From IMG/VR virus record IMGVR_UViG_3300020185_000022: 64,000 nt of DNA. One strand, written 5' to 3'. The translations under genes were made by a program, and so were the position numbers. The notes below the pieces were generated by a model. That model did no database searches, was not told the origin of the DNA, and saw nothing but the letters and a program-made list of their open reading frames with translations. The DNA comes from a virus. Positions 391-37,104 of the stretch are shown here, piece after piece (within the stretch, counting starts at the first letter, position 1; every line of letters starts with the position of its first letter).

Positions 391-397
391 AATATTT

Positions 398-964: not shown

Positions 965-974
965 AATAATTTAG

Positions 975-1529: not shown

Positions 1530-1539
1530 AGCAAGTTAA

Positions 1540-1821: not shown

Positions 1822-1836
1822 CTTAAAGAAATTATA

Positions 1837-1859
1837 GGGAGAGGAATTTCTCCCCTCCC
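1837..1859 (-). terminator. Hairpin downstream of the tail-fibre-like gene
   Basis: On the minus strand, GGGAGGGG-agaaatt-CCTCTCCC is followed by TATAATTTCTTT. Confidence 0.4.
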
Positions 1860-1891
1860 ATTAATTATTGTTTAATTATTAGTATTTAGGT

Positions 1892-4226: not shown

Positions 4227-4256
4227 TTCTGAGTAGTTATGGGTTTATACAAAGAA

Positions 4257-4276
4257 AGCTGGAATCCCCTCCAGCT
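4257..4276 (-). terminator. Hairpin downstream of 4346..5794
   Basis: AGCTGGA/TCCAGCT 7-bp stem. The minus-strand tail is TTCTTTG. Confidence 0.35.
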
Positions 4277-4345
4277 AATCTTTTAAGACGATGGCAGAAG
4301 AACTTAGAAGTAATTCGCCAGAGGGGGATTCAGCTTATTTATTTA

Positions 4346-5794: not shown

Positions 5795-5827
5795 AATATT
5801 TAAAATTTAGAGTTTAGTTATATTTAA

Positions 5828-6592: not shown

Positions 6593-6601
6593 CTGTTATA
6601 C

Positions 6602-7549: not shown

Positions 7550-7588
7550 TGTTTTTGTTTATGTATGTAAGTAATAAATAAAGAGATT

Positions 7589-7618
7589 GTACTGCCAGGA
7601 GGTTAGTCCCAGCAGTAC
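7589..7618 (-). terminator. Hairpin after the capsid gene (terminator-like)
   Basis: On the minus strand, GTACTGCTGGGA-ctaacc-TCCTGGCAGTAC forms 12 bp, and its two wobble pairs work only on the minus strand. The following tail AATCTCTTTATTTATT is T-rich but imperfect. Confidence 0.55.
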
Positions 7619-7632
7619 GCTCATCTTAATTT

Positions 7633-9147: not shown

Positions 9148-9192
9148 TGTTTAGAGTATTAAGGGTTCAATAGTTAAAATTAATAATCCTGA

Positions 9193-10410: not shown

Positions 10411-10436
10411 TGTTTTGATTGTTTTACAAAAGTGTT

Positions 10437-10472
10437 AATAAAAAAGGGATGTTCTGTCATTCAATGACAGAA
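10437..10472 (-). terminator. Hairpin plus T-run after the fibre-like gene
   Basis: On the minus strand, TTCTGTCAT-tga-ATGACAGAA is followed by CATCCCTTTTTTATT. Confidence 0.55.
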
Positions 10473-10492
10473 ACGAAATTTACTTTATAGCT

Positions 10493-11824
10493 TTACGCCT
10501 CTAGTATTCCTAGGTTTTTAAGTGCTTTAACTACGTCGTTTATAGTATAAGCCAATGTTCCAGTATTTCCAGTGAAGGTATCTGAAGCATTTACATTAGT
10601 TCCTCCTACGGCTGCGTGGCCTGTAGTTTCACCTGTACCGTTAGGTTGTGCTATTGGGGTAGCACCAAATAAACCTATAGTATCTGAAGCAGCTAGTCCT
10701 ACTTTAATAGTAGGAGACATTGTAATTGCGCCTCTAGTACCTGAACTGACTGTTCCTGTATAGAAATTAATATCTCCAGAATTTCCTGAAGTAGCCCCGC
10801 CATCACCACTATAAAATTCTAAACTTCCACTATTACCAGTAGCTCCAGGAGGGTTAGAACGTAAAGAGAAACTTCCACTATCGCCTGACCCAAAACCATC
10901 GCCACTAAATAGATTAAAATTACCACCATTAAAATTACCAGCAGTAACTTTACCAGCATGTAAGTTTAAATTTTTTCCAGCAGTGCCTGAAGTGGAAGCT
11001 ATACGTATAGTTCTGTGATCAGCATTACTATACTCTACAATTCCAGCTTGTCTATTCTCATCTAAAATTCCTCCTAAAGTAAGAAGATAACTATCATCAG
11101 TACCAAAGTTAAAATTAGAATCTCCATCAGCATCAAAAGTCAAGATACCTCCATTTAAATCTAAACCTGTATCAAGAGTCATATTAGTAGAAGTTATTGT
11201 TACTACGTCTGAGCCTCCTACCTCTATATCTATCTGGTCATCAGTAGGAGCAGAGATAGTAGTATCTCCGTCTCCATCTAAAACTATAGCATCTGCGTTA
11301 CCTTGTGCGTCTAATGTTTTAATATAAAGTATGTCATACACATCGTCTGCTTCAAAGTCAGTTTGCCACTGATCTACATTATAGCAATAAAAAGTAACCA
11401 CATCTTCTGGTTTAATACTTACAGATCCTGTAGTTGCTGTTTTATCGTCAATTTGATCTCCTGAAAAAGGATAGATTAATTTATCTGAAGCTGATAGGTT
11501 TACTATTTTGACTTCATTACCTACTTTTGCATTGGGTAACTGTACACCAGTAGTGCCTGCTCCTGTAGATATAATGTTTAATTTCTTGGTAAGTTTATAC
11601 GCATCTGTAGCACTAGAACCTACTGCAGTAATTCCTGACTCGACAGATAAAAGACTAAAGTAGTCTTTAAGTGTTTGTCCAGTTGCTTTTCTTATGTTGA
11701 ACTCTCCAGATCTTTCTCTGGGTTCGTTTAAAACAAACATAGACTCGTCATCTATCTTAGTGTAATCTTTGACTTCTGGAGTTACTGGAAGTCTTTCGTC
11801 TTTTAGTTGTTTATTCTTACTCAT
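10493..11824 (-). CDS. Gly-rich fibre-like or beta-helix-like virion protein
   Basis: 443 aa with degenerate repeats (GNSGSLEFYSGDGGATSGNSGDINFYTGT). C-terminus ...YTINDVVKALKNLGILEA. It lies between portal and scaffold and is followed by a hairpin plus T-run at 10437-10472. Confidence 0.5.
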   Translation of the reverse strand: MSKNKQLKDERLPVTPEVKDYTKIDDESMFVLNEPRERSGEFNIRKATGQTLKDYFSLLSVESGITAVGSSATDAYKLTKKLNIISTGAGTTGVQLPNAKVGNEVKIVNLSASDKLIYPFSGDQIDDKTATTGSVSIKPEDVVTFYCYNVDQWQTDFEADDVYDILYIKTLDAQGNADAIVLDGDGDTTISAPTDDQIDIEVGGSDVVTITSTNMTLDTGLDLNGGILTFDADGDSNFNFGTDDSYLLTLGGILDENRQAGIVEYSNADHRTIRIASTSGTAGKNLNLHAGKVTAGNFNGGNFNLFSGDGFGSGDSGSFSLRSNPPGATGNSGSLEFYSGDGGATSGNSGDINFYTGTVSSGTRGAITMSPTIKVGLAASDTIGLFGATPIAQPNGTGETTGHAAVGGTNVNASDTFTGNTGTLAYTINDVVKALKNLGILEA

Positions 11825-11835
11825 TATATTATTTT

Positions 11836-14247
11836 TTATTTTTTAGTACTTGGCTTTTTTGCAGCAGAAATACGCGCCTTCTGTAAGTCAGCATTAATTT
11901 TCTTAGTATTTTCCTTCGATTCGTGACGTTTGTCTTTCTCATCTTGTGCAGTCTGATGTTTAAGTTGTTTATCTAACATTCTTTCTTCAACTTCATCGTT
12001 GATGTCATTACTGTTAGAATCATTCTGAACTTTGATTTTCTCTGTCAGAATCTTATTATCAGCCTTGAGTTGTTCGATGAGCATATCCCCCTGAAGTTTA
12101 AGCCCCTCCATCTCTTTATTCTGGTTATGTGAGTAGTCAGCCATAGCTCTAGCTTGCTGCATCTTAGTTTCTTCAAGTTGTTGCTGAGCTTGTTGTTGTT
12201 GTTTCTGCTCTCTAGCAATACGCTTTGAAGCCTCTTCAAGTCTTGCAGATACGTCTTGAACTGAATCAGATCGTAAGATAGATACTACGTCTGAATAGCT
12301 TGCTGCTCCAGCTTGTAGTGCAGCCTGTGATAGTTGTTTTAGTGAATTAAGTACTTCGAAATCTCTAGAAGAATTAGAGATATAGATATCATAGTCAGAC
12401 ATTTGGAACTCAGACATAGACTTGATTACTTCCATCCCCATATCGTCAAAGACGAATTGTCCATATTCTGGTGTCTCTTTATATACAAACTTGCATACTT
12501 CTAAGAGCTTAGTAAGAACTCTTTTCTTAAAGTAAGAGTGTAATCCGTACCATTTCTCAGTAATGTGAGAAGACTGAGAAATCGCTCGTTCTACTCCTCC
12601 TACAGTTTCTGATGCCTGAATCTGGGACTCTCGTTGAGGAGAGACTCCAGATAGTTTACCCATGGTATCTTCTATGCTAAGTAACATTTCATTCCACATC
12701 CTAATGGAATTTGTATTATCGAAAGGAATGTTGGTAGCAGTTAATGTATTAAAGACCCCAGCTGACTTTCCTTGAGATGGTCCTTTCAAAATCTCTGCTG
12801 TAGGGTTGAGTGGCATCATTCTTTTTACAGTAACATGTTGGAACCATTTTTCTGGTGTCCAACCTGCAGGTACCATAGATGTGTTATAGGCCATGATATT
12901 ACCATAGTGGGTAGCCATGTCCATTTCGCGTTTCCACCATACGATGTTATAAGCATAGTCTAATGGCTTAAGAATGTCCATCAAAGATTGAATCTCACCA
13001 GAGTTGGTATTAAAAAACGTACCTACATAGTTTGGAGTACCTGTAGACAAGTTAACCATGGAGCGTCCTGAATAGCCAATTGGTCCGACGTCTACATAGA
13101 TGTCATCTGCTATTCGTACGCCTTGCCACCATTCATTAGGCCAAATCCATTTAACGATTTCTTCTCCAGCATCAGTGTCTGGAAGATATTGTTCAGGTAC
13201 AAACTCAAATTGCTCATTTCCTCCTTCATCGTAGTATTTAAGCTTACCTATTTTTCTTTTGCTTTTCCAACAAGTCCTAGCTACTTTTACATTACCATCA
13301 GCATCAAAAGAAGATCCAAATGATCGTACTCCTTCAGGGTTAAGTAAGAACATACCTGAAGCAGACTGATAACCATAACGGTCTTCTACTGTAAATGTAG
13401 GCATGGTCAAAGAATACTTGTCCTTTGTTTTATCCATCCCATCTCTGTTTTCAAGCTTGTCTACTTCAGCTTCAGTAAGCTGGTCGTACCAGATATCTGA
13501 TACTTGTCCTATACTCATCCAAGAGAACTCTACTTGGATATCTGAGTCTTCTACTCTATTAGATTCTCCTTGTCCTAAGGTGTAGAAGTTTAATGGGTTG
13601 ACCTTTCTTACGCTAGGCCTTCCACCTTCTACTCCTACGTAGACGATTTCTTCACCTGCAATAAGTGCGTCTTCAAAACATTCTGAGAATACTTCTTTGA
13701 GCTCTAGTCTTTGATACTCTCTTTTGAGTACCTTATTTGCTACTTTCTCAGACATGTCTTGGTACTCATACTTAGTGTAGTGTTGTAGCTTAGCTAGCTT
13801 CTCTGCTACTTGGTCTTCGTTTTGATAATTAGCTTTGATGATATCACTAACTGTGCTTTCTAACGTATCCATGAGATCTGACTCTTTTCTCGAGATGCCT
13901 TCTTGATCACCTGCAGAGATAACAGCTTTGAACTCATCAGGGCGCTTACGCTCTTCACCAATAAGTAAGTTGATTTTGTTGTTCCCCATGCCTATATGTC
14001 TAAAAGTAGACGGGAAGGTTTCTAGGCCTAGTTTATTGGGGTCGAGTACCTCTTCTACATCTTTAGGATCAATCTTGTTGATTCGTAGATTGTAGTTTAC
14101 TATTTTGTTTCTGAAAGATTTACGTACTTGTTCGTGGTCTGTATTAGTCAGTTCAGCTGCAGTATCAATGCAATCTTTCCACCACTTTTCAGTTTTCTTT
14201 CTATCAGATAATTTTTGTTTAGGGAACTTTGTAAGTTGATACTCCAT
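11836..14247 (-). CDS. Portal protein candidate
   Basis: 803 aa, immediately downstream of the large terminase. It has a C-terminal Gln-rich coiled-coil tail (EQKQQQQAQQQLEE). Assignment rests on position and size. Confidence 0.7.
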   Translation of the reverse strand: MEYQLTKFPKQKLSDRKKTEKWWKDCIDTAAELTNTDHEQVRKSFRNKIVNYNLRINKIDPKDVEEVLDPNKLGLETFPSTFRHIGMGNNKINLLIGEERKRPDEFKAVISAGDQEGISRKESDLMDTLESTVSDIIKANYQNEDQVAEKLAKLQHYTKYEYQDMSEKVANKVLKREYQRLELKEVFSECFEDALIAGEEIVYVGVEGGRPSVRKVNPLNFYTLGQGESNRVEDSDIQVEFSWMSIGQVSDIWYDQLTEAEVDKLENRDGMDKTKDKYSLTMPTFTVEDRYGYQSASGMFLLNPEGVRSFGSSFDADGNVKVARTCWKSKRKIGKLKYYDEGGNEQFEFVPEQYLPDTDAGEEIVKWIWPNEWWQGVRIADDIYVDVGPIGYSGRSMVNLSTGTPNYVGTFFNTNSGEIQSLMDILKPLDYAYNIVWWKREMDMATHYGNIMAYNTSMVPAGWTPEKWFQHVTVKRMMPLNPTAEILKGPSQGKSAGVFNTLTATNIPFDNTNSIRMWNEMLLSIEDTMGKLSGVSPQRESQIQASETVGGVERAISQSSHITEKWYGLHSYFKKRVLTKLLEVCKFVYKETPEYGQFVFDDMGMEVIKSMSEFQMSDYDIYISNSSRDFEVLNSLKQLSQAALQAGAASYSDVVSILRSDSVQDVSARLEEASKRIAREQKQQQQAQQQLEETKMQQARAMADYSHNQNKEMEGLKLQGDMLIEQLKADNKILTEKIKVQNDSNSNDINDEVEERMLDKQLKHQTAQDEKDKRHESKENTKKINADLQKARISAAKKPSTKK

Positions 14248-14268: not shown

Positions 14269-16458
14269 CTAGTTAAATCTTCTGGGCATATTTACTTTAA
14301 ACATTTCCTCTATAGCTTTATCATTAGCATTTCTACCTAGGACAGTATCAAAGTATTCGTTATCTGTAAAGTCTTTAGCACGTTCTCTATATTCTGTAAT
14401 ACCTGACGGCATAGTCTGATCATGCCAGAATATCATAGCTAACGCAGATACTCTATCGAAGTTACCTTCTTTGTGCCACATGATGAGCTCTTTAAGTATA
14501 GCTGGGCTTCTTATTTCTTTAAGGGCTATTTTGTCTGGGTTTTTTTCAGATAATTCTTCTAGTAGCCAACTTTTTATAAATGCCCTACCTTCTGAGTTTA
14601 CTTTACCAGTAGCTGTAACTCCCTTAGAAGTATTAGTTCCTTCCCTATATGTCGCTTGATTACGTAGTTGTGTAGGCGTATCAGCTAGGAGATATAGGCA
14701 TTGTTTCTGCTCAAAGTGTGTGAACATACCTACGAGGTTCTGCTCATACATAATAGTTGCGTGATAGTATATAGCTAGTCGTCTTGCAATTTCGTATACC
14801 TGTTTTGAGTAATCTTTTCTACCAGTATATTCAGCAACAATACGACGGGTGAGCCTATCAAATACAATGCAGCTAAATAAAGAATCAGTGGTAGAAATGT
14901 CTTTGTCGACAGTGTCCACTCCAATGATATAACGATGGTAAGGTATAAGTCCATTTTCGTCTTTTACAGGTTTTTCAAATAGCTCAATTGCTCCTGCTGT
15001 ATCAGCATTTTTCTTTAGAGGAAAGTCTCGTATAGGCTTAGCGCTGTCTAAGTCTTCCCAAGTTATCGCTCCATCTTTATATACTAGTTCACCTTTCCAT
15101 GAGGAGTCAAGCCAACGTTGTCTGTTACCTACTACTTCAGAAAGTCTGTCTTTTAGACTAACTACTGGGAAGTATGCTCCTTCAAGTACTAAGAAAGCCT
15201 CACTAGGTACAAGAGGTCTGTTAATGATCTCTGATTGATACGCAGTCTTAGATGGATTCTTTCTAGCTTTTTCTCTATCCATTTCTACAGATAGAGCAGC
15301 CTTGGTTTCGTTTGTTACTTTGTTGGGCCCTTCCTTGAATCCATTAAGAGTACTAGTAATAGGCACGAAGTATCCTATTTTTCCTGTGTTCTCAAATACG
15401 TCATCAAAACTAATACAGCCAAACTCTTCAGGGTTTCTAAAGATATTTTCAGCGTGTAGAGCTGAACTACCTCCAATTAGTCCTCCAGTACCTAAGCACC
15501 AGATGACCATGTTCTTAGTTTGTTTAGATGCCTGAGACCCTGTAAGAGCGCCCCAAGCTTCTTCGATATTACTAAAGAAACCAATCTCATCGAGTGCTAC
15601 AAGGTTAGGACGTCCAGCGTTACCTGCTAGAGGATTGTCCTTAAAAGTTCTGTGATATAGCTTAGAACCTGAGGCACTTTCTACGTTACGGTTAGCACCC
15701 CATCCACCTGTAATTCCAGGGAAGAATGGTGCAGGATAATACTCACCTTGGTAAGTAGTCCCTCCAGGAAGTAGATCAAGCCCCACCTTTACTTTATCAA
15801 TAAGCGGTTTAGAGTACTTAGTATCAATTGCTCCTAGGATAGTATCGGAACTTAGAGGTGCCTTCAGTCTAAGCTGTTCCAAATAAAGGTCATAATCAAT
15901 GGCCCCAGAGAATATAAAGTTATGTAATATAAGACCTGCAGTCGCATATGATTTTCCTCCACCACGACTCTGCATAGAAATAAAGTTCTGAGCATTATTA
16001 GCGTAGAGAGGTTTGCCTAAACTCTTGCCATGGTTTCTCCTTAGATATTCTCTAGCATCTATGTAGTTTTTACTATCGCGTTCCTTTTCGTCTATAAGAC
16101 CAAGTAGTCTAGCATTAGTATACTCTGGTCCATATTTTCTGTCACAAGTATTTTTAGTGTCTAGTTCAAACCCTGAGAAGCCCCGACATTCCTCATACAA
16201 GAGGAACAACTCCCAATCTATATCTCTCAGCCAAGGCATTCCAAATACTTGCCCTTTAGTTCTTTTGTCTTCTATTTCAATGTGGTGAAAGTTTACGTAG
16301 TAATACAGAGGCCCTGGCATCCACTTACCTGCTACCCAATAACCTTCTATGCACTTGCGTGCTTCTGTAGACCACCAAGTAATCCTGTCATATTCCTGTG
16401 ATATAGGATTGAATGTTGGTATGTCTTTTATTAGAAAGCTACTGTTTTCTACTAACAT
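14269..16458 (-). CDS. terL: Terminase large subunit
   Basis: 729 aa with a Walker A-like SRGGGKSY, a Walker B LVALDEIGF and a C-terminal RNaseH-like nuclease Asp motif IIGVDTVDKD. Confidence 0.88.
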   Translation of the reverse strand: MLVENSSFLIKDIPTFNPISQEYDRITWWSTEARKCIEGYWVAGKWMPGPLYYYVNFHHIEIEDKRTKGQVFGMPWLRDIDWELFLLYEECRGFSGFELDTKNTCDRKYGPEYTNARLLGLIDEKERDSKNYIDAREYLRRNHGKSLGKPLYANNAQNFISMQSRGGGKSYATAGLILHNFIFSGAIDYDLYLEQLRLKAPLSSDTILGAIDTKYSKPLIDKVKVGLDLLPGGTTYQGEYYPAPFFPGITGGWGANRNVESASGSKLYHRTFKDNPLAGNAGRPNLVALDEIGFFSNIEEAWGALTGSQASKQTKNMVIWCLGTGGLIGGSSALHAENIFRNPEEFGCISFDDVFENTGKIGYFVPITSTLNGFKEGPNKVTNETKAALSVEMDREKARKNPSKTAYQSEIINRPLVPSEAFLVLEGAYFPVVSLKDRLSEVVGNRQRWLDSSWKGELVYKDGAITWEDLDSAKPIRDFPLKKNADTAGAIELFEKPVKDENGLIPYHRYIIGVDTVDKDISTTDSLFSCIVFDRLTRRIVAEYTGRKDYSKQVYEIARRLAIYYHATIMYEQNLVGMFTHFEQKQCLYLLADTPTQLRNQATYREGTNTSKGVTATGKVNSEGRAFIKSWLLEELSEKNPDKIALKEIRSPAILKELIMWHKEGNFDRVSALAMIFWHDQTMPSGITEYRERAKDFTDNEYFDTVLGRNANDKAIEEMFKVNMPRRFN

Positions 16459-23030: not shown

Positions 23031-23516
23031 TCTAAGATGTATAACATCTATCTTGTATAACATATAACCCTGTAAAACTTCCACACCATGGATAGAACTG
23101 AAATATCTTTGTACTTGTCATGCAAGTCAAACAAGACGAAAGTCAACAAAAGAATTACGAATGATGGCACTGTAAAGGCTGCATTCAACAGAGGACAAGA
23201 CTATGCTGAGTCTATCCTTGTAGGTAAGAGTTATCAGCATAAGAATATGAGCAGAGTCAGCCTATGTGAACAACCTAGTTGCAGCTAGGTATTCATTAGG
23301 GTAAACGCACAAATGATTCAATGTGTGAGACTACTAAGACCTACAACAAGCCTGCAAAGCTTGGGAGCTGATCACTCTAAGAAAAGTACTTCGTAGATGG
23401 GAATCCCTATGTATGCTCTGTGTTGTATGATTGGTCACATAAGAAATGCTGAAGAGCTAGAGCTGTCGCTCAAATACTAATTCCTCATAAGCCTACAATG
23501 AGGTAAGAAATAAAAA

Positions 23517-23632
23517 ATAACAAGCTGTATAGTGTGGCTAATCACTTATGCACATAGTGGTAAGATGAATACTAGTCTAATCTGAAGCTTTTCCTGTATA
23601 ACTTGCTCTAAGTGCATTGTATGGCTTGTTAT
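23517..23632 (+). ncRNA. Hairpin module B1 (AGCUG/GGCU family)
   Basis: The closing helix 23517-23536/23613-23632 is 20 bp, 6 of them G:U. The core is AAGCUGUAU opposite GUAUGGCUU. Confidence 0.45.
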
Positions 23633-23717
23633 ATACTTAGTAGAGCTGTCATGACTGATGAATCAAAAGACATGTTAGCAGTAAGTCTCTGCCGTTATGA
23701 TGGTTCTACTAAGTATA
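23632..23717 (+). ncRNA. Hairpin module B2 (AGCUG/GGUU variant): 24-bp helix
   Basis: TATACTTAGTAGAGCTGTCATGAC (23632-23655) pairs with GTTATGATGGTTCTACTAAGTATA (23694-23717). There are 20 Watson-Crick and 4 G:U pairs, uninterrupted, with a 38-nt loop. Confidence 0.55.
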
Positions 23718-23722
23718 ATACA

Positions 23723-23825
23723 GAGCTGTTGAGTAGAAGAACAAAGTAGCAGTAGTGACTGCGATCCCACCAAATTAAGCACATAATGCCTAGTTACGGT
23801 TACTCTAGGGGCTATTCAACGGCTC
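23723..23825 (+). ncRNA. Hairpin module B3 (AGCUG/GGCU family)
   Basis: GAGCTGTTGAGTAG (23723-23736) pairs with CTATTCAACGGCTC (23812-23825), 14 bp including 2 G:U. Inner hairpins are GCAGT/ACTGC and CCTAG/CTAGG. Confidence 0.5.
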
Positions 23826-23843
23826 AATGATACATTTTCAGGG

Positions 23844-23930
23844 GGAAGAAGAGGGGAGTACAACAACACAACAGTTTAGAATAACTGTAAGCGCATTTGT
23901 TGTTCGATACGAACCTCTTCTTTTATTCTG
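23844..23930 (+). terminator. Long composite hairpin ending island B (terminator-like)
   Basis: Three nested helices: 23844-23854/23914-23924 (11 bp including 2 G:U), 23862-23868/23898-23904 and 23871-23876/23883-23888. The 3' side runs into TTTTATT. Confidence 0.45.
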
Positions 23931-24050
23931 ACATTTCAGCACACTCTAAATATACCTCTATTCTCATTTTAAATAGCTTTAGCGCTTAGATCTCTTGGTT
24001 TTGATACCTACATACTAGCGAGCTATTATAACCTCTTAAATCACCTGAAA

Positions 24051-24896: not shown

Positions 24897-25190
24897 ATGG
24901 CATATAAACTACCTGTAGATTACAACTCATTAGATTGGCGTAAAGGTGAAAAGCGTGCTGTTAGAGAGCAGTATGTTAAAGAACAAGACGGTAAATGTAT
25001 GTATTGTGGTACACCATTAAATAGTGGACCACCTCATGCAATTACTGACAAAAACATTAATTGGGACTTATTCCCACCAAATTTCCTAAAACATCCTGTG
25101 CATCTACAACATGACCATGAAACTGGTATGACTGAAGGTGCTGTACATGCTTACTGTAATGCAGTATTATGGCAGTATGAAGGAAGATAA
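24897..25190 (+). CDS. Endonuclease VII-type (His-Me finger) nuclease
   Basis: 97 aa with CMYCGTPL ... LQHDHETGMTEGAVHAYCNAVLW, matching the EndoVII pattern C..C ... DHDH.tG..rG..C..CN. Confidence 0.65.
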   Translation: MAYKLPVDYNSLDWRKGEKRAVREQYVKEQDGKCMYCGTPLNSGPPHAITDKNINWDLFPPNFLKHPVHLQHDHETGMTEGAVHAYCNAVLWQYEGR

Positions 25191-25476: not shown

Positions 25477-25845
25477 ATGAAGTATCTTAAAACGCTTTGG
25501 CCAGCATTTATAGCCTTAATTCTTATTGCTTGTGCTACAATTGCTCTTAGTAGTTGTACCAAAAATGATGATGACATCGAAAAAGTTGTAAGTAATACAA
25601 TTGCACAAACCCAAGCTACATGCTGGGAGTGTGAATTTGGAGCAACTTACATGCTTTGGGAAGTAAATTCTCAAGGTGATACTGTAGCTAGTATGTGGAG
25701 AGTTACAGTCCAAGACTCTGTGATGTATAATCCAGACATTGATAGTAATTATTACTATAGTAGTAGTACTGTTGCGATTCCAGTAGTAGTTGATTCATTG
25801 TATCATGATGACTTGTACATTAGAAATTGTACTAAAACTCCATAG
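25477..25845 (+). CDS. Probable lipoprotein, possibly surface-exported
   Basis: Signal peptide with an LSSC lipobox followed by TKNDDDIE. The acidic run after the Cys resembles the Bacteroidota lipoprotein export signal. Confidence 0.55.
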   Translation: MKYLKTLWPAFIALILIACATIALSSCTKNDDDIEKVVSNTIAQTQATCWECEFGATYMLWEVNSQGDTVASMWRVTVQDSVMYNPDIDSNYYYSSSTVAIPVVVDSLYHDDLYIRNCTKTP

Positions 25846-26111: not shown

Positions 26112-26408
26112 ATGACAAAGAAAAAACAAAATCTATGTGTTAGCTGTAAACACTGGCACAGCGGACAAAAAGACATAAATTATCATGAAGATATCGGTAT
26201 TTGTGTAAATCCTGATATGGCATTTAATATTACAGATGGAAGAAAAGCTGGAATATTAGATCAAAAAAATCTTAAAAATAGAACACATGTCACAGGCAAT
26301 TGTGCTCATGATTTTGAACACAAAAAGAGTGCTGTCGTACCTTCTAGATATTCACTTGTTACAAATGAGTTATTTGGGTGTATACTTCATATAAAACGTA
26401 ATGAGTAG
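26112..26408 (+). CDS. Cys-containing hypothetical protein (possible Zn-binding)
   Basis: 98 aa with CVSCKHWH ... GICVNP ... GNCAHD. Confidence 0.45.
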   Translation: MTKKKQNLCVSCKHWHSGQKDINYHEDIGICVNPDMAFNITDGRKAGILDQKNLKNRTHVTGNCAHDFEHKKSAVVPSRYSLVTNELFGCILHIKRNE

Positions 26409-26751
26409 TCTAAGCAAAAAAGAATTTTATGAGATTATGAATTATAATTTATTAACTCATAAAACTCTAAATAATGTTAGAGGAGAAAGACTTCCTTATA
26501 ACATAACGCAAGAGGACACTTATTGGGAATACTACATCAAAGATTTAGAGGTAGACGATATACTCTATATTCCTTCCCATAAAGGAAAAAAAATAAAGGC
26601 TTTATGGGGAATAAGTTCATTTGAAAAGATTGGAGATATGAGGATAATTAAGTTCAATAGGCTGGAGCCAACTTCAACAAGCACGTTTAGAACTAATGAG
26701 TTCATAACCTTTCCAATGGACAGTAGAACTTACTTTAGAATACTAAGATAA
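26401..26751 (+). CDS. Hypothetical protein
   Basis: 116-aa ORF, the last gene before ORF-free island C. Confidence 0.5.
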   Translation: MSSLSKKEFYEIMNYNLLTHKTLNNVRGERLPYNITQEDTYWEYYIKDLEVDDILYIPSHKGKKIKALWGISSFEKIGDMRIIKFNRLEPTSTSTFRTNEFITFPMDSRTYFRILR

Positions 26752-26857
26752 TTAAGCTGTATGTGTTTCTAATTACTCAGCATCGACCGATATCTATCGG
26801 TTGTACTATAGTAGTTAGTGAATAGATCAAAATCAAAACTGAAACCATACGGCTTAA
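26752..26857 (+). ncRNA. Hairpin module C1 (AGCUG/GGCU family)
   Basis: TTAAGCTGTATG (26752-26763) pairs with CATACGGCTTAA (26846-26857), 12 bp with 1 U:G. Its 5' flank aligns with that of B1. An inner hairpin is ACCGATA-tct-TATCGGT. Confidence 0.5.
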
Positions 26858-27406
26858 GAAGCCCTGATAAATACACGAGACCACTTGTGTATAAATAGGC
26901 AGATACCTGTGGTCAGGTATTGGGATGAACTTGGAATTTAAATTCAGGGTCCCGCAGGATAGAAGAGCAAGTGAGCTATCTCTTTAATATACCTGTGAAG
27001 AAAAAAACATAATTAGCAATCTGTAAATATATGATGTCTATAGAAGCGCGGTGTTGGCTACACCCTCAAGGGTAACTTAAATTACTGGTATTAAGCTATA
27101 TCAATGACTAATTATTATAACTCTCATCCAATTGCTGGTCTGCACCACTCTAAAATTGGGTTCTTCAAAACCAAAGCACTATAAACTTGGAATGTTGCAA
27201 CATATCTCCTCGCGTTTGGGCAGTACAATAGTCATCAAGGATCGCAACCTTGTGAGAGTTAACTTACTTAAGAACATAAGACAGTGCAGTGAGGAATGCT
27301 GAAAAGGCGGGGAAAACTAGTAACTAGAGAACCGTAATCCTATAACCTGATAAATGTTCTTAACTTATTCAAGGTGAGTACTCAAGCCTTTATGGTGGAG
27401 TACACT

Positions 27407-27639
27407 AAACTACCTAGCTGATAACAAACAGCAATGAGTCTTGAGAATAGACTGAACCCCGATGGGCGGATTGGGAATAAACAAAATGAGGTCCATTGAA
27501 TATGTTTATCAGTGTAACCACTACCAAGAGTGGTGATGTTTGTTTGATGAGTTAGTATATTAAGATGTGGACTCCCATTGGGGGAGAAGCTAGTCTTAAT
27601 GAAATCTTCCACAACACTTGGAAGTGGGCTAGGTAGTTT
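27407..27639 (+). ncRNA. Domain C2 closed by an AGCU/GGCU helix
   Basis: AAACTACCTAGCT (27407-27419) pairs with GGCTAGGTAGTTT (27627-27639), 13 bp with 1 U:G, spanning about 230 nt. TT follows. Confidence 0.45.
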
Positions 27640-27667
27640 TTCATTAAAATCTTAAAACATTTCAATC

Positions 27668-28024
27668 ATGGACAAGAAAATATTCAATGAGGACTCATTA
27701 GGTGAGGAAATCAAAAAGCAGTGGGGAGAGTTTGGCGCTCACTACGAAGTATACCAAATGCTTCTAAAGGCATTAAAGGCAACGGAGAAAAGCGAATACA
27801 CAGAATGGGCAGGTCAACGTCAGATAATGCACGACAAGATAGAAACCCTTCAGCAAGAACTCAAAAGGGTGAATCTTAGTAAATCGCTATTGGCCTTTGA
27901 GTTAAAAACATTGCAAGGATTTCACACGGAGTTGTACAATAAGGTTGAGGCTGACGAAACAATAGAGCCTATTACTAAATACGTATCTCCAGAGGATTTA
28001 GATGAACTAACCAACAACCAATAG
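27668..28024 (+). CDS. Hypothetical protein (helical)
   Basis: 118-aa ORF. Confidence 0.5.
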   Translation: MDKKIFNEDSLGEEIKKQWGEFGAHYEVYQMLLKALKATEKSEYTEWAGQRQIMHDKIETLQQELKRVNLSKSLLAFELKTLQGFHTELYNKVEADETIEPITKYVSPEDLDELTNNQ

Positions 28025-28267
28025 AGAGATGAACTCAAAAATAGGAAGAACTTATAGCGTAGTTAAATTTAGGTGGGTCAGGTTCAGAAGGCTTTTTCCT
28101 AATGGAATCAAAATAATAGAACCAACAACAAGTAGAAAGTAATAGTTTATCACACGCTGAAGAACGGAAGGCTGCCTCTATATAGTCCTATGTTGAAAAA
28201 AACTCTCAGATGAATAAGAGGGACTATTATACCTATATCAAATATTAATCACCAAATACCTTGAATT

Positions 28268-28456
28268 ATGGAAGATTACACTTCTATGTCTGTAGAGGAC
28301 ATTAAACAGGAAATGACTAGACTTGAGAACGAAGTAGAGTTAAAGAAAGAAGCTCGTAGGAGTAGTAAAGAAGAGCGAACTAAGCTTTATGAACTTGAGG
28401 AGATACTCAGGGACAGATATATTACTCATGTAGTAAATGAAGATCTTATATCATGA
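28268..28456 (+). CDS. Hypothetical coiled-coil protein
   Basis: 62-aa ORF whose stop overlaps the next start (ATGA). Confidence 0.45.
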   Translation: MEDYTSMSVEDIKQEMTRLENEVELKKEARRSSKEERTKLYELEEILRDRYITHVVNEDLIS

Positions 28457-29243: not shown

Positions 29244-29648
29244 ATGACACATATATTTTACTTTTTTACTCTTTTTGCTTTAGCTTGGGAGTATAAAAAC
29301 TTTACTGATCCATATGCAGTAAAGCGTTGGGCTGATTATGCTAAAAAGCATATGAAAAAAGAGAATGTAGAGAGCAGAAAGAAAGCTGGAGAAGAAATAA
29401 TAGAAAGTAGTGTAGTTTTCTTTTTCCCTTTGAATCTTTTGTATATGTTCTGGGCATTTGTAGGATTATTCACTTCACAGTGGGCATTGTTTGCTGCATT
29501 ATACCTATTATCTCTGATAAAGAGAAAAGATAGGTCAGCTACATATCGTCGTATTAACGGCTTTATTAGCTTTTGCATCCTAGTGTTTATAATACTAAAC
29601 AAGTACCATTTTAAACTGGACTTGTGGTCCATGCTTACTAGCATGTAA
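29244..29648 (+). CDS. Membrane protein
   Basis: 134 aa, about four hydrophobic helices. The antisense ORF 29336..29680 is judged a shadow. Confidence 0.5.
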   Translation: MTHIFYFFTLFALAWEYKNFTDPYAVKRWADYAKKHMKKENVESRKKAGEEIIESSVVFFFPLNLLYMFWAFVGLFTSQWALFAALYLLSLIKRKDRSATYRRINGFISFCILVFIILNKYHFKLDLWSMLTSM

Positions 29649-29763
29649 TGCAGAAAATTTGCTGTAGTGCCTTCCCCCAAGAGAGTGAGAGAATTAAAGT
29701 TGAGTCACAATTGGCACTGCAGTTCATTTAAAGAAATAATCAAATTCTCCAACACCATTACAT

Positions 29764-30535: not shown

Positions 30536-30984
30536 TACTAAATCAAATTAGAAAAATTCTTGCAAACGAAAAAGAAGTTGCAAAACTTCTTGGATAATAC
30601 AATACGAGGTCACACGCAAGTGTTGAGGACTATTCTCGTGTTAAGGGGAACTGAAATCCTTTCAGCCCTAATATTGAAACTGTATAGTAATGTGCAGAAT
30701 ACTACTGGATGTATGCCATAAAGCCAGAATAATAGTATTGGAAGTTGGCAGCTTGACCATTTATTTAGCCCACGCTAGAATGTAGGACGTAAAGCCCTTG
30801 TCTAGAGAGTAGGACGACATAAATGGTGCTAAAACTTTTAAATATTCAGGTGCATAGTATCAAATAAAGTGGAGAGTGTGAGTACTCTATCGAGCCAGAA
30901 GCTCTTTCTACACATTTGATGTAATTAACCTTCAAAAGCCACAGGCAGAGATCCGAACTGCTAGATATTATGTGCCTTAGAATA

Positions 30985-31055
30985 TTAGCTGTGCGTACAT
31001 ACTTTCAAGGGCCAGACGCTTAACCTGGATTCCTGAAAGTGTATGCATTGGCTAG
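30985..31055 (+). ncRNA. Hairpin module D1 (AGCUG/GGCU family)
   Basis: TTAGCTGTGCGTAC (30985-30998) pairs with GTATGCATTGGCTAG (31041-31055), 14 bp including 4 G:U, with a 1-nt bulge. This stacks on ACTTTCA/TGAAAGT (7 bp) and then CCAG/CTGG. Confidence 0.5.
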
Positions 31056-31103
31056 ATAGTAATCTGTAGAACAGTAGGGCGTTCTACTCATTTGTCAGAG
31101 TTT

Positions 31104-31152
31104 AGAGAGGGGGTTTTGAGGTGTCATGCCCTTTCGTTTCCCCCTCTTTATC
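31104..31152 (+). terminator. Hairpin ending island D (terminator-like)
   Basis: AGAGAGGGGG (31104-31113) pairs with CCCCCTCTTT (31140-31149). The U-tail is weak. Confidence 0.4.
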
Positions 31153-31165
31153 TCGCTTAACTAAA

Positions 31166-31173
31166 TACGTTTG
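31166..31173 (+). promoter_or_regulatory. TAnnTTTG box
   Basis: TACGTTTG ends 2 nt before the ATG at 31176, just after the island-D terminator-like hairpin. Confidence 0.4.
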
Positions 31174-31175
31174 AA

Positions 31176-35118: not shown

Positions 35119-37104
35119 ATGATTTACTTAGTTTCTAATCAAACACGAATTTTTGAAGATACAAGTATCTTACAAATATCTGTAGAAAGGAGTCTAGAAA
35201 TTCTAGCTCCTTTTTCTCAGATAGAGTTTGATACTGAAACTACTGGGCTAGATGCTCATACTTGTAGGTTATTATCTATGCAGTTTGGGAATATTAATTT
35301 TCAAGTTGTTGTGGACTGTACTACTATTTCTCCCCTGAAATATAAAAAATTACTAGAGGATAAGTCAAAGACTTTCCTAATGCAGAATGCCAAGTTTGAC
35401 TTGAAATTTCTGTACAGGTATATGATAGTTCCACATAATGTTTACGATACTATGCTAGGTGAGAGTGTTATTCACTCTGGCGACAGGTCTAAACGAAAGT
35501 CTCTTGACGTTATTACTGAGAGATATCTTGGTTTTAGATTAGATAAGACTGTTCGTGGTAGCATTCACAAAGAAGGACTCTCAGAAAGAGTCATTAAGTA
35601 TGCTGCTGATGATGTTAAATATCTTGGTGAAATTAAAAAACATCAAGATAAGATTCTCAAAGAAACTGGGATGACTTTGGCATTAGACTTAGATAATATG
35701 TACGTAAAAGTACTTGCTTATATAGAATACTGCGGTATGTATATGGATAGCGAGTCTTGGAAGTTCAAGTGTAAACTGGACATGAAGCATATGGATATCT
35801 GGGCAGGTTTACTTGACAGACATCTAAATTCTCTCTTTGATAAGAATCCTAAACTTAAGAAGTTTCAAAAAGTACAGTATAGTTTAGACTTATTTGGAGA
35901 AGAAGATAGAAAAGTTACCATTAACTGGTCTAGTCCTACTCAAGTACTTGATGTGCTGGGGTGTTTTGACATCAAGCCAGTTGTTATGGACAAGAAGACT
36001 AAGAAGATGAAATATTCTGTCGAGTCTGGTGTCCTAAAAAAGTACAAGAAAGAACTCGATAAAGCTTTAGGGAAAGATTTCCTTAGATTGTACCTGAAAT
36101 ACAAAGCATCGCAGAAGACAGTTACTACCTATGGTAAAAACTTCTTCAGTCATATTAATCCTATCACTGGAAGAATACATACTAAGTTCAATCAATTGAT
36201 GAACACAGGTAGATTATCTTCAGGTGGAAAGGATAGAGCTCTTAGAGTCGATTTCATAAACTTTCAGAACATTCCTAGGGGTAAGTATACTCGAGGTCGT
36301 TTCGTAGCTCAGAGGGCTTCTAATACGCTCGTATGTGCTGATTATAGCTCACAGGAAAGTGTCGTACTGACAAATCTATCAAATGAATCTAATCTTATTG
36401 AATTCTATACGAATGGAGAAGGAGACTTACATACTTTCGTTGCAAAGCTTCTTTACCCAGCCATCAAGGACTGTACAGTTAAAGAAGTCAAGACAAAGCA
36501 CTCAGAAAAGAGACAGACTGCAAAGTCTGCAAACTTCGCCCTTGCTTATGGGGGAGATGGATACACTCTTAGTAAGAACCTTGATATACCTATTGCTGAA
36601 GGCAAGGAGATTTATAACAAGTACTTTGATGCCTTTCCTGGCCTTAAAGATTACTTTAATAAATGTTCTGACGAAGCTTTACAGAAGGGCTATGTTGTAT
36701 TATCGCCTGTAAGTGGTAGAAGAACTTATTTCCCTCAGCACGAAGAATACAAGACTCTTAAAAGCAAGAGACCTGCATTTGGTACTGAAGAAGGAAAGAA
36801 GCTTTTTAGAATGAAAGGCTCCATGACTAGAGACAGTATTAATTATCCAATACAGGGTACATCAGCTGAGATGACTAAACTAGCTCAAGTGTTGTTCTTT
36901 GATGAATTACGTAAGAGGGATTTATTATTTACTGTTCTAATACCTAATGTGGTACACGATGAAATACTAATCGAGTGTCCTAAGAAAATTGCCCAAGAGA
37001 TGTCAGATTTGTTACAAGAGTGTATGGAAAAAGCAGGACGTAAGTTCTGTAAGACTATACCTGTTGCTGCAGAACCTATGATTTCGTCAGCCTGGGAACA
37101 TTAA
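35119..37104 (+). CDS. polA: DNA polymerase, family A, with 3'-5' exonuclease domain
   Basis: Exo I EFDTETTGLD, Exo II NAKFDLKFL, Exo III YAADDV. Pol motif A CADYSSQESVVL, motif B RQTAKSANFALAYGG, motif C VVHDEILIE. No 5'-3' exonuclease domain is present. Confidence 0.92.
   Translation: MIYLVSNQTRIFEDTSILQISVERSLEILAPFSQIEFDTETTGLDAHTCRLLSMQFGNINFQVVVDCTTISPLKYKKLLEDKSKTFLMQNAKFDLKFLYRYMIVPHNVYDTMLGESVIHSGDRSKRKSLDVITERYLGFRLDKTVRGSIHKEGLSERVIKYAADDVKYLGEIKKHQDKILKETGMTLALDLDNMYVKVLAYIEYCGMYMDSESWKFKCKLDMKHMDIWAGLLDRHLNSLFDKNPKLKKFQKVQYSLDLFGEEDRKVTINWSSPTQVLDVLGCFDIKPVVMDKKTKKMKYSVESGVLKKYKKELDKALGKDFLRLYLKYKASQKTVTTYGKNFFSHINPITGRIHTKFNQLMNTGRLSSGGKDRALRVDFINFQNIPRGKYTRGRFVAQRASNTLVCADYSSQESVVLTNLSNESNLIEFYTNGEGDLHTFVAKLLYPAIKDCTVKEVKTKHSEKRQTAKSANFALAYGGDGYTLSKNLDIPIAEGKEIYNKYFDAFPGLKDYFNKCSDEALQKGYVVLSPVSGRRTYFPQHEEYKTLKSKRPAFGTEEGKKLFRMKGSMTRDSINYPIQGTSAEMTKLAQVLFFDELRKRDLLFTVLIPNVVHDEILIECPKKIAQEMSDLLQECMEKAGRKFCKTIPVAAEPMISSAWEH

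What the first reader, a model, noticed from the sequence alone, without database searches (positions are those of the whole stretch)
26752..27667. Island C: a 916-nt candidate large structured RNA starting at the stop codon of the upstream gene
Helix C1 begins 1 nt after the TAA of 26401..26751. Further long-range helices, 27268-27277/27354-27363 (10 bp perfect) and 27407-27419/27627-27639 (13 bp), enclose many local hairpins. Examples are ACCGATA/TATCGGT, ATACCTG/CAGGTAT and CTCCC/GGGAG. The size and nested architecture resemble the large 'ornate' bacterial and phage RNAs (the GOLLD/ROOL class). I cannot match the sequence to either from memory.
Basis: partly seen in the sequence, partly recalled or inferred. 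Interest (0 to 1): 0.7.

Follow-up and report, generated by a model that had tools for sequence, protein, structure and literature searches.

The report
New conserved phage RNA inside gap
The 916-base gene-free stretch of this marine crAss-like phage is real, but it is not shown to be one giant RNA; its only conserved piece is a ~140-base pseudoknotted RNA that recurs in over 100 related environmental phage contigs and matches no catalogued RNA family.

Summary
The gap 26752-27667 is non-coding. All six frames carry TAA, TAG and TGA stops, public gene calls on identical contigs are empty there, and its two ORFs match no protein family. However, a perfect 10-bp helix appears in 36% of shuffles, a 12-bp one in 3%, and mean local folding z (-1.17) equals that of the flanking genes (-1.11). 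Rfam 15 gives no hit to GOLLD, ROOL, introns or anything else. Only near-identical genomes exist, so a single 916-nt fold cannot be tested.

Positions 27119-27260 belong to an undescribed RNA family. It has an 8-bp P1, a conserved J1/2 (UCCAA[UU]GCAGG), a hypervariable P2 arm, and a 5-bp P3 with 7-nt loop RUUGCAA stacked on P1. A J1/2-loop pseudoknot is likely. I recovered 111 distinct copies from more than 130 phage contigs. Compensatory changes occur in 6 of 8 P1 pairs and 2 of 5 P3 pairs, and 12 of 13 copies chosen for a mutated 5' strand carry the matching 3' change. Wobble changes occur only on the gene-sense strand. Copies sit in ORF-free gaps (median ~690 nt) between co-directional genes.

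Function is unknown. My best guess is a discrete small-RNA module within an early non-coding transcript.

The parts
26752..27667 (+). ORF-free island between two co-directional small early genes (26401-26751 and 27668-28024)
   Evidence: ORF list; all three stop codons in all six frames; no gene called on public copies L124/L125; the two small ORFs hit no Pfam or PHROGs family
26752..26859 (+). 5' domain: a ~106-nt extended hairpin starting at the base after the TAA stop (helix C1, 26752-26763/26848-26859; apical hairpin ACCGAUA/UAUCGGU). It is thermodynamically exceptional but has no comparative support.
   Evidence: MFE fold; the window 26750-26899 has z=-7.5; no similarity to any fetched locus
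27119..27260 (+). Conserved core: one copy of a new pseudoknotted three-way-junction RNA family
   Evidence: Covariance model R1 gives 56.3 bits, E=5e-12, and this is the only significant hit in the 64-kb window. It is the only island segment with similarity to related phages. The same two motifs occur in L001, inside that phage's own 655-nt gap.
27119..27126 (+). P1 5' strand (A-ACUCUCA), pairing with 27253-27260
   Evidence: Family-wide, 6 of 8 P1 pairs show double compensatory changes. In the targeted test, 12 of 13 true elements with a mutated 5' strand carry the matching 3' change.
27127..27138 (+). J1/2, UCCAAUUGCUGG (family consensus UCCAA[UU]GCAGG). Positions 27132-27137 are the proposed pseudoknot strand pairing with loop positions 27242-27247.
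   Evidence: Near-invariant across 111 copies. Pseudoknot support: C-G to U-A in 3 copies, a U-A swap in L164, and G-U to A-U in 2 copies. Six copies carry mismatches, including the window itself (U-C).
27139..27235 (+). P2, the variable arm. Its length varies so that whole elements span 46-238 nt, and 64 sequence classes are seen among 111 copies.
   Evidence: Alignment A2; constrained folds; class analysis
27236..27252 (+). P3 hairpin CAAGG-AUCGCAA-CCUUG: a 5-bp stem and 7-nt loop, directly abutting the P1 3' strand
   Evidence: Stem and loop lengths are the same in every copy recovered, though the scanners required them. Compensatory CAGGG/CCCUG and UAAGG/CCUUA variants occur.
27253..27260 (+). 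P1 3' strand (UGAGAGU-U)
   Evidence: As for the P1 5' strand. The outer -1/+1 pair is U-A in 86 copies and A-U in 10, the window among the latter.
27268..27363 (+). It is real but at chance level.
   Evidence: Inverted-repeat scan; 35.5% of shuffles contain a perfect inverted repeat of 10 bp or more
27407..27639 (+). 3' domain closed by a helix of 12 bp plus one G-U (27407-27419/27627-27639). It is mildly unusual and untestable by covariation.
   Evidence: Inverted-repeat scan; 3% of shuffles reach 12 bp; present in the MFE and centroid folds
27517..27544 (+). Weak terminator-like hairpin (ACCACU..AGUGGU) with a T-rich tail, 258 nt after the core and about 125 nt before the next start codon
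   Evidence: Consensus scan. In the family, sense-strand terminator-like sites between core and next gene occur in 25 of 79 contexts, against 12 of 79 on the antisense strand.

Best explanation
Shown: the island is a non-coding spacer between rightward early genes of a marine crAss-like phage. Its single conserved component (27119-27260) folds on the gene-sense strand into a three-way junction. P1 has 8 bp. P3 has 5 bp and a 7-nt loop and stacks directly on P1. P2 is a variable arm. The conserved J1/2 strand probably pairs with the P3 loop to form a pseudoknot.

This core belongs to a previously uncatalogued RNA family. The family is common in environmental crAss-like phage contigs, where it lies in ORF-free gaps a few hundred nucleotides long.

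Inferred: the island is transcribed rightward together with, or between, the early genes. This would parallel the abundant long non-coding RNAs reported for the crAss-like phage phi14:2. The core would then be a discrete small-RNA module. Its invariant P1/J1-2/P3 scaffold would be the handle recognised by a conserved host or phage factor, and the P2 arm would carry copy-specific function.

My preferred concrete mechanism has about 0.25 probability on its own. The P1+P3 coaxial stack, the U at -1 and the A-C-N-A tail mimic a tRNA acceptor/T-arm minihelix. tRNA-end-processing enzymes (RNase P, and RNase Z or exonucleases) would therefore cut a stable small RNA out of the long early transcript.

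The remaining ~770 nt are lineage-specific flanking RNA. They include a very stable 5' hairpin at 26752-26859. There is no evidence that they and the core form one obligatory large fold.
For: Phage identity: the window encodes TerL, portal and MCP PHROGs, a PolA and a 1504-aa protein matching crAss virion RNAP subunits. The phage occurs as ~92-kb contigs in North Sea and other samples.

Non-coding status.

The core is conserved. L001 has a PolA only 46% identical, yet shares ACTCTCATCCAATTGC and CAAGGnTnGCAACCTTGTGAGAGT inside its own 655-nt gap. Every copy not cut by a contig end has the 5' motif 50-207 nt upstream. Model R1 found 113 and 35 hits in the two searches of the motif-bearing loci.

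Structure: divergent copies carry compensatory changes. In the targeted scan for 5' ACTCTTR, 13 of 16 hits were true elements; 12 had the exact complementary 3' strand and 1 had G-U pairs. Formal counts give 9 pairs with double changes against 2.5 in shuffles, 0 of 500 shuffles reaching the observed value, and 99% of cells paired against 32-43% when partners are slid.

Strand: 16 one-sided transitions create G-U on the + strand and none create A-C.

Context: 104 of 106 copies are intergenic. The median gap is 686 nt, and in 96 of 100 cases both neighbours are on the element's strand. Multiple copies within one contig are always on the same strand.

Discrete module: the same P2 class occurs in unrelated flanks, for example 9 members with 8 different upstream and 8 different downstream contexts. 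Conservation stops sharply at -1 and +4.

Precedent: phi14:2 has two long intergenic regions transcribed rightward, early and persistently, more strongly than most genes, with unknown function (bioRxiv 10.1101/2020.03.07.982082).

tRNA-like geometry: the recovered copies have a 7-bp P1 plus an outer -1/+1 pair, a 5-bp P3, a 7-nt loop and no spacer between P3 and P1, though the scanners required these lengths. U at -1 and the 3' tail A, C, N, A are conserved.
Against: There is no expression data for this phage, so transcription and RNA ends are inferred.

The core region itself has an unremarkable MFE z of about +0.4.

The pseudoknot is only moderately supported. About four compensatory or neutral events stand against six copies with a mismatch, including the window (U-C).

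The tRNA analogy is geometric only. ARAGORN and the Rfam tRNA model do not recognise the element. The loop RUUGCAA is not a T-loop consensus. The -1/+1 positions covary as a base pair, which real pre-tRNAs usually avoid. The elements are not clustered with tRNA genes.

Class-wise conservation of P2 is not required of a mere processing signal.

Part of the alignment was ascertained with an exact 3' motif and with scanners that required pairing, so the 'percent paired' figure is inflated. The double-change counts and one search are the less biased tests.

No conserved neighbouring protein points to a partner.
Confidence: 0.55

Rival explanations
1. One reading: the entire 916 nt folds into one large multi-domain 'ornate' RNA comparable to GOLLD or ROOL. 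The conserved core would be its catalytic or functional centre, and the flanking helices would be peripheral domains that evolve quickly.
For: The core family always sits in ORF-free gaps of median ~690 nt, up to 2 kb. The whole-island MFE z is -3.47. A 12-bp perfect helix closes a 230-nt 3' domain (p about 0.03). The 5' domain has z=-7.5. Terminator-like sites bracket the gap in about a third of family members, as expected for a separate several-hundred-nt RNA gene.
Against: Nothing outside 27112-27262 is conserved, even with L001 or the marine relatives. The 10-bp helix is at chance, and mean local z equals that of the coding flanks. Natural copies as short as 46-50 nt exist (L014/L029), so the core is self-contained. 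The same core and P2 recur in unrelated flanks. There is no Rfam hit to any large RNA.
Confidence: 0.12
2. The core is a cis-acting regulatory leader. It would act on the transcribing polymerase, as the put RNAs of phage HK022 do, or on nearby terminators, allowing read-through into the downstream early genes.
For: The element is in the same orientation as its flanking genes in 96 of 100 cases. Sense terminator-like hairpins are enriched about twofold, both between the upstream stop and the core (33 of 79 against 16 of 79) and between the core and the next gene (25 of 79 against 12 of 79). The extreme sequence conservation fits binding to a conserved host machine. There are several copies per genome.
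Against: Most copies have no recognisable terminator downstream (54 of 79). No conserved promoter motif lies upstream. Conservation of P2 within classes is unexplained. There is no similarity to put or other known antiterminator RNAs in Rfam.
Confidence: 0.12
3. The core is a new small self-cleaving ribozyme that processes long early transcripts.
For: It has a compact pseudoknotted junction with about 25 near-invariant nucleotides in junction and loop, a dispensable variable stem, a minimal natural size of about 50 nt and multiple copies per phage genome. This is the profile of twister, pistol and hatchet (the comparison with those ribozymes rests on my own knowledge).
Against: No match to any ribozyme model. 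No candidate cleavage site can be named. There is no association with known ribozymes or with typical ribozyme-neighbour genes.
Confidence: 0.08
4. The conserved sequence works at the DNA level. Candidates are a near-palindromic protein-binding site (CAAGGnTTGCAACCTTG), an origin, or an extruded hairpin promoter for the virion RNA polymerase, as in phage N4.
For: P3 is an imperfect 17-bp palindrome. The crAss virion RNAP prefers single-stranded templates, and its early promoters are unknown. The element lies in the early region.
Against: P1 covaries across 46-238 nt of variable sequence. One-sided changes are exclusively wobble-compatible on the sense strand, 16 to 0. That argues for sense RNA and against a duplex site or a template-strand hairpin.
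Confidence: 0.05
5. The core is a metabolite-sensing riboswitch controlling the downstream gene.
For: It has a three-way junction with a pseudoknot and a highly conserved core. Eleven of 88 copies end 28-39 nt before a start codon.
Against: The median distance to the next start is 268 nt. There is no consistent expression platform. Downstream genes are heterogeneous small hypothetical proteins.
Confidence: 0.04

Closest known systems
Long non-coding early RNAs of crAss-like Cellulophaga phage phi14:2 (g004-g005 and g005-g006 intergenic regions; Drobysheva et al., bioRxiv 10.1101/2020.03.07.982082)
   Same: Both are crAss-like phages, phi14:2 of a marine Bacteroidota host. Both have ORF-free regions from several hundred nt to 1.7 kb among rightward early genes. 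In phi14:2 these are transcribed in the gene direction, early and persistently, at very high level, and their function is unknown.
   Different: There is no sequence or model match: R1 finds nothing significant in phi14:2 positions 1-12000. Expression of the window's island has not been measured.
GOLLD / ROOL large ornate RNAs (Rfam)
   Same: They are phage-associated, several hundred nt long, non-coding and multi-hairpin, and their function is unknown.
   Different: No covariance-model hit even at E<=10. Here only a ~140-nt core is conserved, and natural copies can be as short as 46-50 nt. This is therefore a small-motif family in a long gap, not a conserved large fold.
tRNA acceptor/T-arm minihelix (RNase P model substrates; tRNA-like elements such as mascRNA or the T4 stable RNAs). 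This comparison rests on my own knowledge.
   Same: A 7-bp helix is stacked without a spacer on a 5-bp helix capped by a 7-nt loop. A U follows the 5' strand and a U precedes it. The 3' tail is A-C-N-A. A variable arm sits where the anticodon arm would be. The upstream junction strand contacts the 7-nt loop.
   Different: Not detected by ARAGORN or the Rfam tRNA model. The loop is RUUGCAA, not T-psi-C-R-A. The loop contact is an antiparallel Watson-Crick pseudoknot. There is no D arm. The -1/+1 nucleotides pair, making an 8-bp stem. P2 can exceed 150 nt.
Small pseudoknotted self-cleaving ribozymes (twister, pistol, hatchet)
   Same: Similar size range, a pseudoknot, invariant junction and loop nucleotides, an optional variable stem, and multi-copy occurrence in phage or metagenomic DNA.
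   Different: No model match, a different topology and consensus, and no evidence of cleavage.
HK022 put antiterminator RNAs
   Same: A phage-encoded, cis-oriented structured RNA in early transcription units with more than one copy per genome. Terminators are enriched nearby.
   Different: put RNAs are two simple stem-loops with no pseudoknot or variable arm. There is no sequence relation, and most copies here lack a downstream terminator.

Membership tests
GOLLD (Rfam) | Match to the curated covariance model at or above its gathering score | tested here: not met
   No hit at gathering in the whole window, nor at E<=10 in 26300-28400
ROOL (Rfam) | Match to the curated covariance model at or above its gathering score | tested here: not met
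   No hit
Group I / group II introns | Match to the intron core models (the P3-P9 core, or domain V); an interrupted host gene with exon continuity | tested here: not met
   No Rfam hit. The flanking ORFs are complete, separate genes with their own stop and start codons.
tRNA / tmRNA | Cloverleaf detected by ARAGORN or by the Rfam tRNA model | tested here: not met
   ARAGORN finds 0 genes in the window. No element in 60 loci is called as a tRNA. No RF00005 hit at E<=10.
tRNA-like minihelix (RNase P substrate mimic) | A coaxial stack of about 12 bp made of a 7-bp and a 5-bp helix, a 7-nt loop and no spacer on the 3' strand | tested here: met
   P1 is 7 bp plus an outer -1/+1 pair, P3 is 5 bp, L3 is 7 nt and the P3-P1 junction is 0 nt in every copy recovered; the scanners required these lengths
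tRNA-like minihelix (RNase P substrate mimic) | Cleavage by RNase P at the 5' end of the acceptor-like stem | not testable with these tools
   Needs an in-vitro RNase P assay or 5'-end mapping
tRNA-like minihelix (RNase P substrate mimic) | T-loop consensus (U54...A58 reverse-Hoogsteen motif) | tested here: not met
   The loop is G/A-U-U-G-C-A-A in 105 of 111 copies, which is not TTCRANY
Known self-cleaving ribozymes (hammerhead, twister, twister-sister, pistol, hatchet, HDV-like) | Match to the Rfam models | tested here: not met
   No hits at E<=10 in the window region or at E<=1 on five loci holding canonical copies
New family defined here (model R1) | P1 helix closing the element, supported by covariation | tested here: met
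   The window copy has ACUCUCA/UGAGAGU plus A-U at -1/+1. Family-wide, 6 of 8 pairs have double changes, and the targeted test gave 12 of 13.
New family defined here (model R1) | J1/2 consensus UCCAA(UU)GCAGG and P3 CAAGG-RUUGCAA-CCUUG abutting P1 | tested here: met
   The window has UCCAAUUGCUGG and CAAGG-AUCGCAA-CCUUG, each with one substitution. R1 gives 56.3 bits, E=5e-12.
New family defined here (model R1) | J1/2-L3 pseudoknot | tested here: inconclusive
   Compensatory C-G to U-A in L031, L040 and L014b, and a U-A swap in L164. Mismatches occur in the window, L132, L163, L046, L133 and L160.
New family defined here (model R1) | Location in an ORF-free gap between co-directional genes of a crAss-like phage | tested here: met
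   The window gap is 916 nt with both neighbours on +. Family-wide, 96 of 100 are co-directional and the median gap is 686 nt. TerL, portal or PolA homologues of the window phage occur in some motif loci.

The most novel reading that the evidence does not exclude
The 27119-27260 core defines a new and widespread class of functional RNA in environmental crAss-like phages. An invariant pseudoknotted scaffold carries a hypervariable but individually conserved arm, with 64 arm classes among 111 copies. Such a scaffold-plus-specificity-arm family, comparable in logic to tRNAs, guide RNAs or Y RNAs, would be produced from the long non-coding early islands and would have a biochemical role not yet described for phages. 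Possible roles are a tRNA-mimicking decoy or processing substrate, a new ribozyme, or a polymerase-modifying RNA. It could also explain why crAss-like phages keep large, highly transcribed non-coding regions.
Probability: 0.35. Interest if true: 0.8.

Novelty: new variant of a known kind. Interest (0 to 1): 0.6.

Why it matters
crAss-like phages are among the most abundant viruses in gut and marine Bacteroidota communities. Their early regions contain long non-coding stretches. In the one case studied (phi14:2) these are transcribed more strongly than most genes, and nobody knows why.

This analysis gives the first comparative foothold in such a region. It defines a sharply bounded, covariation-supported RNA module that is shared by more than 100 otherwise divergent phage contigs and is absent from Rfam. 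The module is small enough (50-140 nt) for direct biochemistry. It therefore turns 'mysterious phage lncRNA' into testable questions: is it cut out, by what enzyme, what binds the invariant scaffold, and what do the variable arms specify?

Size and many hairpins alone do not make a GOLLD/ROOL-like RNA.

Tried and rejected
- **Stop-codon recoding (TAG or TGA reassigned, as in some crAss-like phages) hiding a gene.** Rejected, because every frame has all three stops and no suppressor tRNA was found.
- **Known RNA families.** None was found in the window or in canonical copies.
- **GenBank phage genomes.** There was no match for the island or for a consensus element.
- **Closer relatives for covariation of the whole island.** None were found.
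  - The flanking proteins have no relatives in IMG/VR.
  - The downstream protein has only identical copies and two partial homologues in unrelated contexts.
  - PolA relatives in viral and metagenome collections are all 46% identical or less.
- **A second copy of the motif in the window, or a copy in phi14:2.** None was found.
- **Shared sequence between this island and the window's other gaps, or between those gaps and related phages.** None was found.
- **A conserved neighbouring protein as partner.** None exists; the largest neighbour cluster covers 21 of 111 contexts at varying positions.
- **A conserved promoter upstream of the motif.** None was seen.
- **tRNA gene clustering.** Absent.
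- **Two apparent 'divergent P1' members (L062-, L128-).** These were reverse-strand artefacts of the near-palindromic P3.
- **Literature search by exact motif sequence.** No paper was found. The supplement of the phage structured-RNA catalogue (PMC10690425) is not held, so it could not be checked.
Full report
**What the window is.** The 64-kb window carries a leftward structural module: MCP at 7633-9147, portal at 11836-14247 and TerL at 14269-16458, all identified by PHROGs. It also carries a rightward block of small early genes followed by replication genes, namely PolA at 35119-37104, a DnaB-like protein and a helicase. A 1504-aa protein distantly matches the crAss virion RNA-polymerase subunit. 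The same phage occurs as ~92-kb contigs in a North Sea JGI metagenome and in ENA assemblies. It is therefore a marine crAss-like phage with no close relative in GenBank phage records.

**Checking the observation.**
- Positions 26752-27667 lie between two + strand genes, 26401-26751 and 27668-28024.
- All six frames contain TAA, TAG and TGA, so the stop-codon recoding known in some crAss-like phages cannot hide a gene.
- Public gene calls on identical copies leave the gap empty.
- A perfect inverted repeat of 10 bp or more turns up in 35.5% of dinucleotide shuffles of the island, and one of 12 bp or more in 3%.
- The whole-island MFE z-score is -3.47 on + and -2.87 on -.
- In 150-nt windows the island mean (-1.17) is the same as the surrounding coding sequence (-1.11, sd 1.44). 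Only the first ~250 nt stand out, with z -7.5 at 26750-26899, and several coding windows are as extreme.
- So the description is accurate, but most of it is not beyond chance.

**Known families.**
- Rfam 15 gives nothing at gathering thresholds in the whole window.
- At E<=10 in 26300-28400 it gives only junk of 19 bits or less. There is no GOLLD, ROOL, intron, tRNA, ribozyme or riboswitch hit.
- ARAGORN finds no tRNA or tmRNA.

**Finding relatives.**
- The flanking proteins have no relatives in IMG/VR.
- The downstream protein has only identical copies plus two partial homologues in unrelated contexts.
- Other copies of the island are identical or differ by 5 SNPs, none of them inside it.
- PolA relatives in viral and metagenome collections are 46% identical or less.
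- A large fold therefore cannot be tested by covariation.
- One PolA relative (L001) has its own 655-nt ORF-free gap. That gap shares two short collinear blocks with the island: ACTCTCATCCAATTGC and CAAGGnTnGCAACCTTGTGAGAGT.
- Nothing else in the island matches any fetched locus.

**A new RNA family.**
- Six MAG contigs also matched. They come from bins assigned to unrelated phyla, so I take them to be mis-binned phage contigs.
- Every copy not truncated by a contig end has the 5' block ACUCUCAUCCAA(UU)GCAGG 50-207 nt upstream.
- Some motif loci encode TerL, portal or PolA homologues of the window phage, with TerL up to 56% identical. The carriers are therefore related crAss-like phages.
- A covariance model built from 54 non-redundant copies (A2, R1) scores the window copy 27116-27263 at 56.3 bits, E=5e-12. 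This is the only significant hit in the window.
- The model found 113 and 35 hits in the two searches of the motif loci, including divergent second copies.
- No Rfam family matches canonical copies.
- No GenBank phage carries the motif.
- No paper contains its sequence.

**Structure.** The fold has four parts.
- P1 is (U)ACUCUCA/UGAGAGU(A).
- J1/2 is UCCAA(UU)GCAGG.
- P2 is a variable arm.
- P3 is CAAGG-RUUGCAA-CCUUG. Its 3' strand runs straight into the P1 3' strand, so P3 stacks on P1.

Divergent copies carry compensatory changes:
- P1 appears as ACUCUUG/CAAGAGU, ACUCUUA/UAAGAGU, GUUCUUG/CAAGAAC and ACUCCUA/UGGGAGU.
- P3 appears as CAGGG/CCCUG and UAAGG/CCUUA.

As a prospective test I scanned for the mutated 5' strand ACTCTTR TCCAAGCAGG.
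- Of 16 hits, 3 were chance matches in coding DNA and 13 were true elements.
- Of those 13, 12 carried exactly the complementary 3' strand and 1 carried G-U pairs.

On a P2-deleted alignment (A3):
- 9 of 19 pairs show double changes, against 2.5 in shuffles, with 0 of 500 shuffles reaching the observed value.
- 6 of 8 P1 pairs and 2 of 5 P3 pairs are involved.
- The percentage paired is inflated because my scanner required pairing.

In the set ascertained only through a fixed 3' strand, all 16 one-sided transitions create G-U on the + strand and none creates A-C. The folding strand is therefore the gene-sense strand, that is, RNA.

A pseudoknot between J1/2 (UUGCAG) and the P3 loop (UUGCAA) has mixed support.
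- For: C-G to U-A in three copies, an A-U to U-A swap in L164, and G-U to A-U in two copies.
- Against: six copies, including the window, have a mismatch.
- I call it probable, not proven.

**Context.**
- 104 of 106 copies are intergenic.
- They sit in ORF-free gaps of median 686 nt (range 187-2005).
- In 96 of 100 cases both neighbours are on the element's strand.
- Multiple copies in one contig share a strand.
- Conservation ends abruptly at -1 (U) and +4, the tail being A, C, N, A. No promoter motif is seen upstream.
- Sense-strand terminator-like hairpins are about twofold enriched on both sides of the element within the gaps (example L099).
- P2 falls into 64 classes among 111 copies. The same class occurs in unrelated flanks, for example 9 members with 8 different upstream and 8 different downstream contexts. 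The element therefore behaves as a discrete, strongly constrained module rather than part of a longer conserved RNA.
- Natural copies as short as 46-50 nt lack P2 altogether.
- No neighbouring protein family is consistently associated.
- tRNA genes are not adjacent.

**Interpretation.** The island is a real non-coding region, and the window's arrangement is typical of the family: a ~140-nt core embedded in several hundred nt of lineage-specific non-coding sequence between co-directional early genes. The published precedent is phi14:2, another crAss-like phage of a marine Bacteroidota host. Its long early intergenic regions are transcribed rightward at very high, persistent levels with unknown function. 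R1 finds no copy in that region.

I conclude that the core is a small structured RNA module on the sense transcript. Its invariant scaffold is probably a recognition handle for a conserved factor, and its P2 arm is probably copy-specific.

The geometry is that of a tRNA acceptor/T-arm minihelix: 7 (+1) bp stacked on 5 bp, a 7-nt loop, no spacer, U at -1 and an A-C-N-A tail. It suggests, as my preferred but weakly supported mechanism (about 0.25), excision by tRNA-processing enzymes. Several points count against it: tRNA detectors fail, the loop is not a T-loop, and -1/+1 pair. Alternatives are a put-like antiterminator, a new self-cleaving ribozyme, a riboswitch and a DNA-level site. The last is disfavoured by the strand-specific wobble pattern.

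**Verdict.** The real finding is narrower and better supported than the original: a new, widespread, covariation-supported RNA motif family in environmental crAss-like phages, with one copy at 27119-27260.

Noticed in passing
window 23289-24050, 30536-31175, 28025-28267: There are further long ORF-free gaps (762, 640 and 243 nt) among the same rightward early genes. None has an Rfam hit, a copy of the new motif, or similarity to any fetched locus.
   Followed up: partly
window 26752-26859: A ~106-nt extended hairpin begins at the base after the upstream stop codon. It gives the lowest folding z in the 7-kb scan (-7.5). It has no U-tract, so it is not a classical terminator, and no homologue was found.
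   Followed up: partly
window 25550-25699, 26400-26549, 29500-29649: Coding windows reach MFE z of -5.0 to -5.7, as extreme as most of the island. In this phage, thermodynamic z-scores alone do not separate non-coding RNA from genes.
   Followed up: no
L023, L033, L037, L079, L094, L098, L099, L103, L106 (motif copies): Nearly identical copies of one P2 class sit in eight different upstream and eight different downstream sequence contexts. The element is either mobile or recombining as a unit, or far more constrained than its flanks.
   Followed up: partly
L067 400-436(-), L091 7771-7807(+); upstream of full copies in L012, L045, L080, L094, L112, L118: Degenerate mini-versions occur: P1 plus J1/2 only, or CCUCUCAUCCUGUAAAGCAGGGGUUGACUUGUGG. 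They often lie a few tens of nt upstream of a full copy. They may be decayed copies or a second, smaller motif.
   Followed up: no
upstream flanks of several motif copies (e.g. L100, L047, L008, L030): A recurrent sequence, ACAACUGAGUGCAGAGGGAUU, lies directly 5' of the element in a subset of loci. It also appears translated as '..ITTECRG..' in spurious ORF starts. It may be another RNA module.
   Followed up: no
class-A P2 arms, e.g. L049 3689-3784, L035 13189-13287, L100 3271-3367(-): The apical loop of this P2 class is 7 nt (UUAUGAU, CUAUAGU, GUAUGGU) with U at position 2 and a purine at position 6, as in anticodon loops. This may be coincidence.
   Followed up: no
window 24947-25177 versus 29353-29666: Three collinear direct repeats of 72-76% identity link ORF 24897-25190 to ORF 29244-29648. 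These are probably paralogous small early genes.
   Followed up: no
L006 3196-3281(-), L094 5321-5406(+): ARAGORN calls odd 'tRNA-???' genes with 2-base anticodons. One lies about 150 nt from a motif copy. Ordinary tRNA-Arg(TCT) genes lie 2-4 kb from the motif in about a dozen loci.
   Followed up: no
L128-L133 (GTDB MAG contigs): The six bacterial or archaeal 'genome' contigs carrying the motif are assigned to unrelated phyla (Chitinophagaceae, Acidimicrobiales, Phycisphaerales, Saccharibacteria, Promethearchaeia). One is 117.9 kb. They look like phage contigs mis-binned into MAGs.
   Followed up: no
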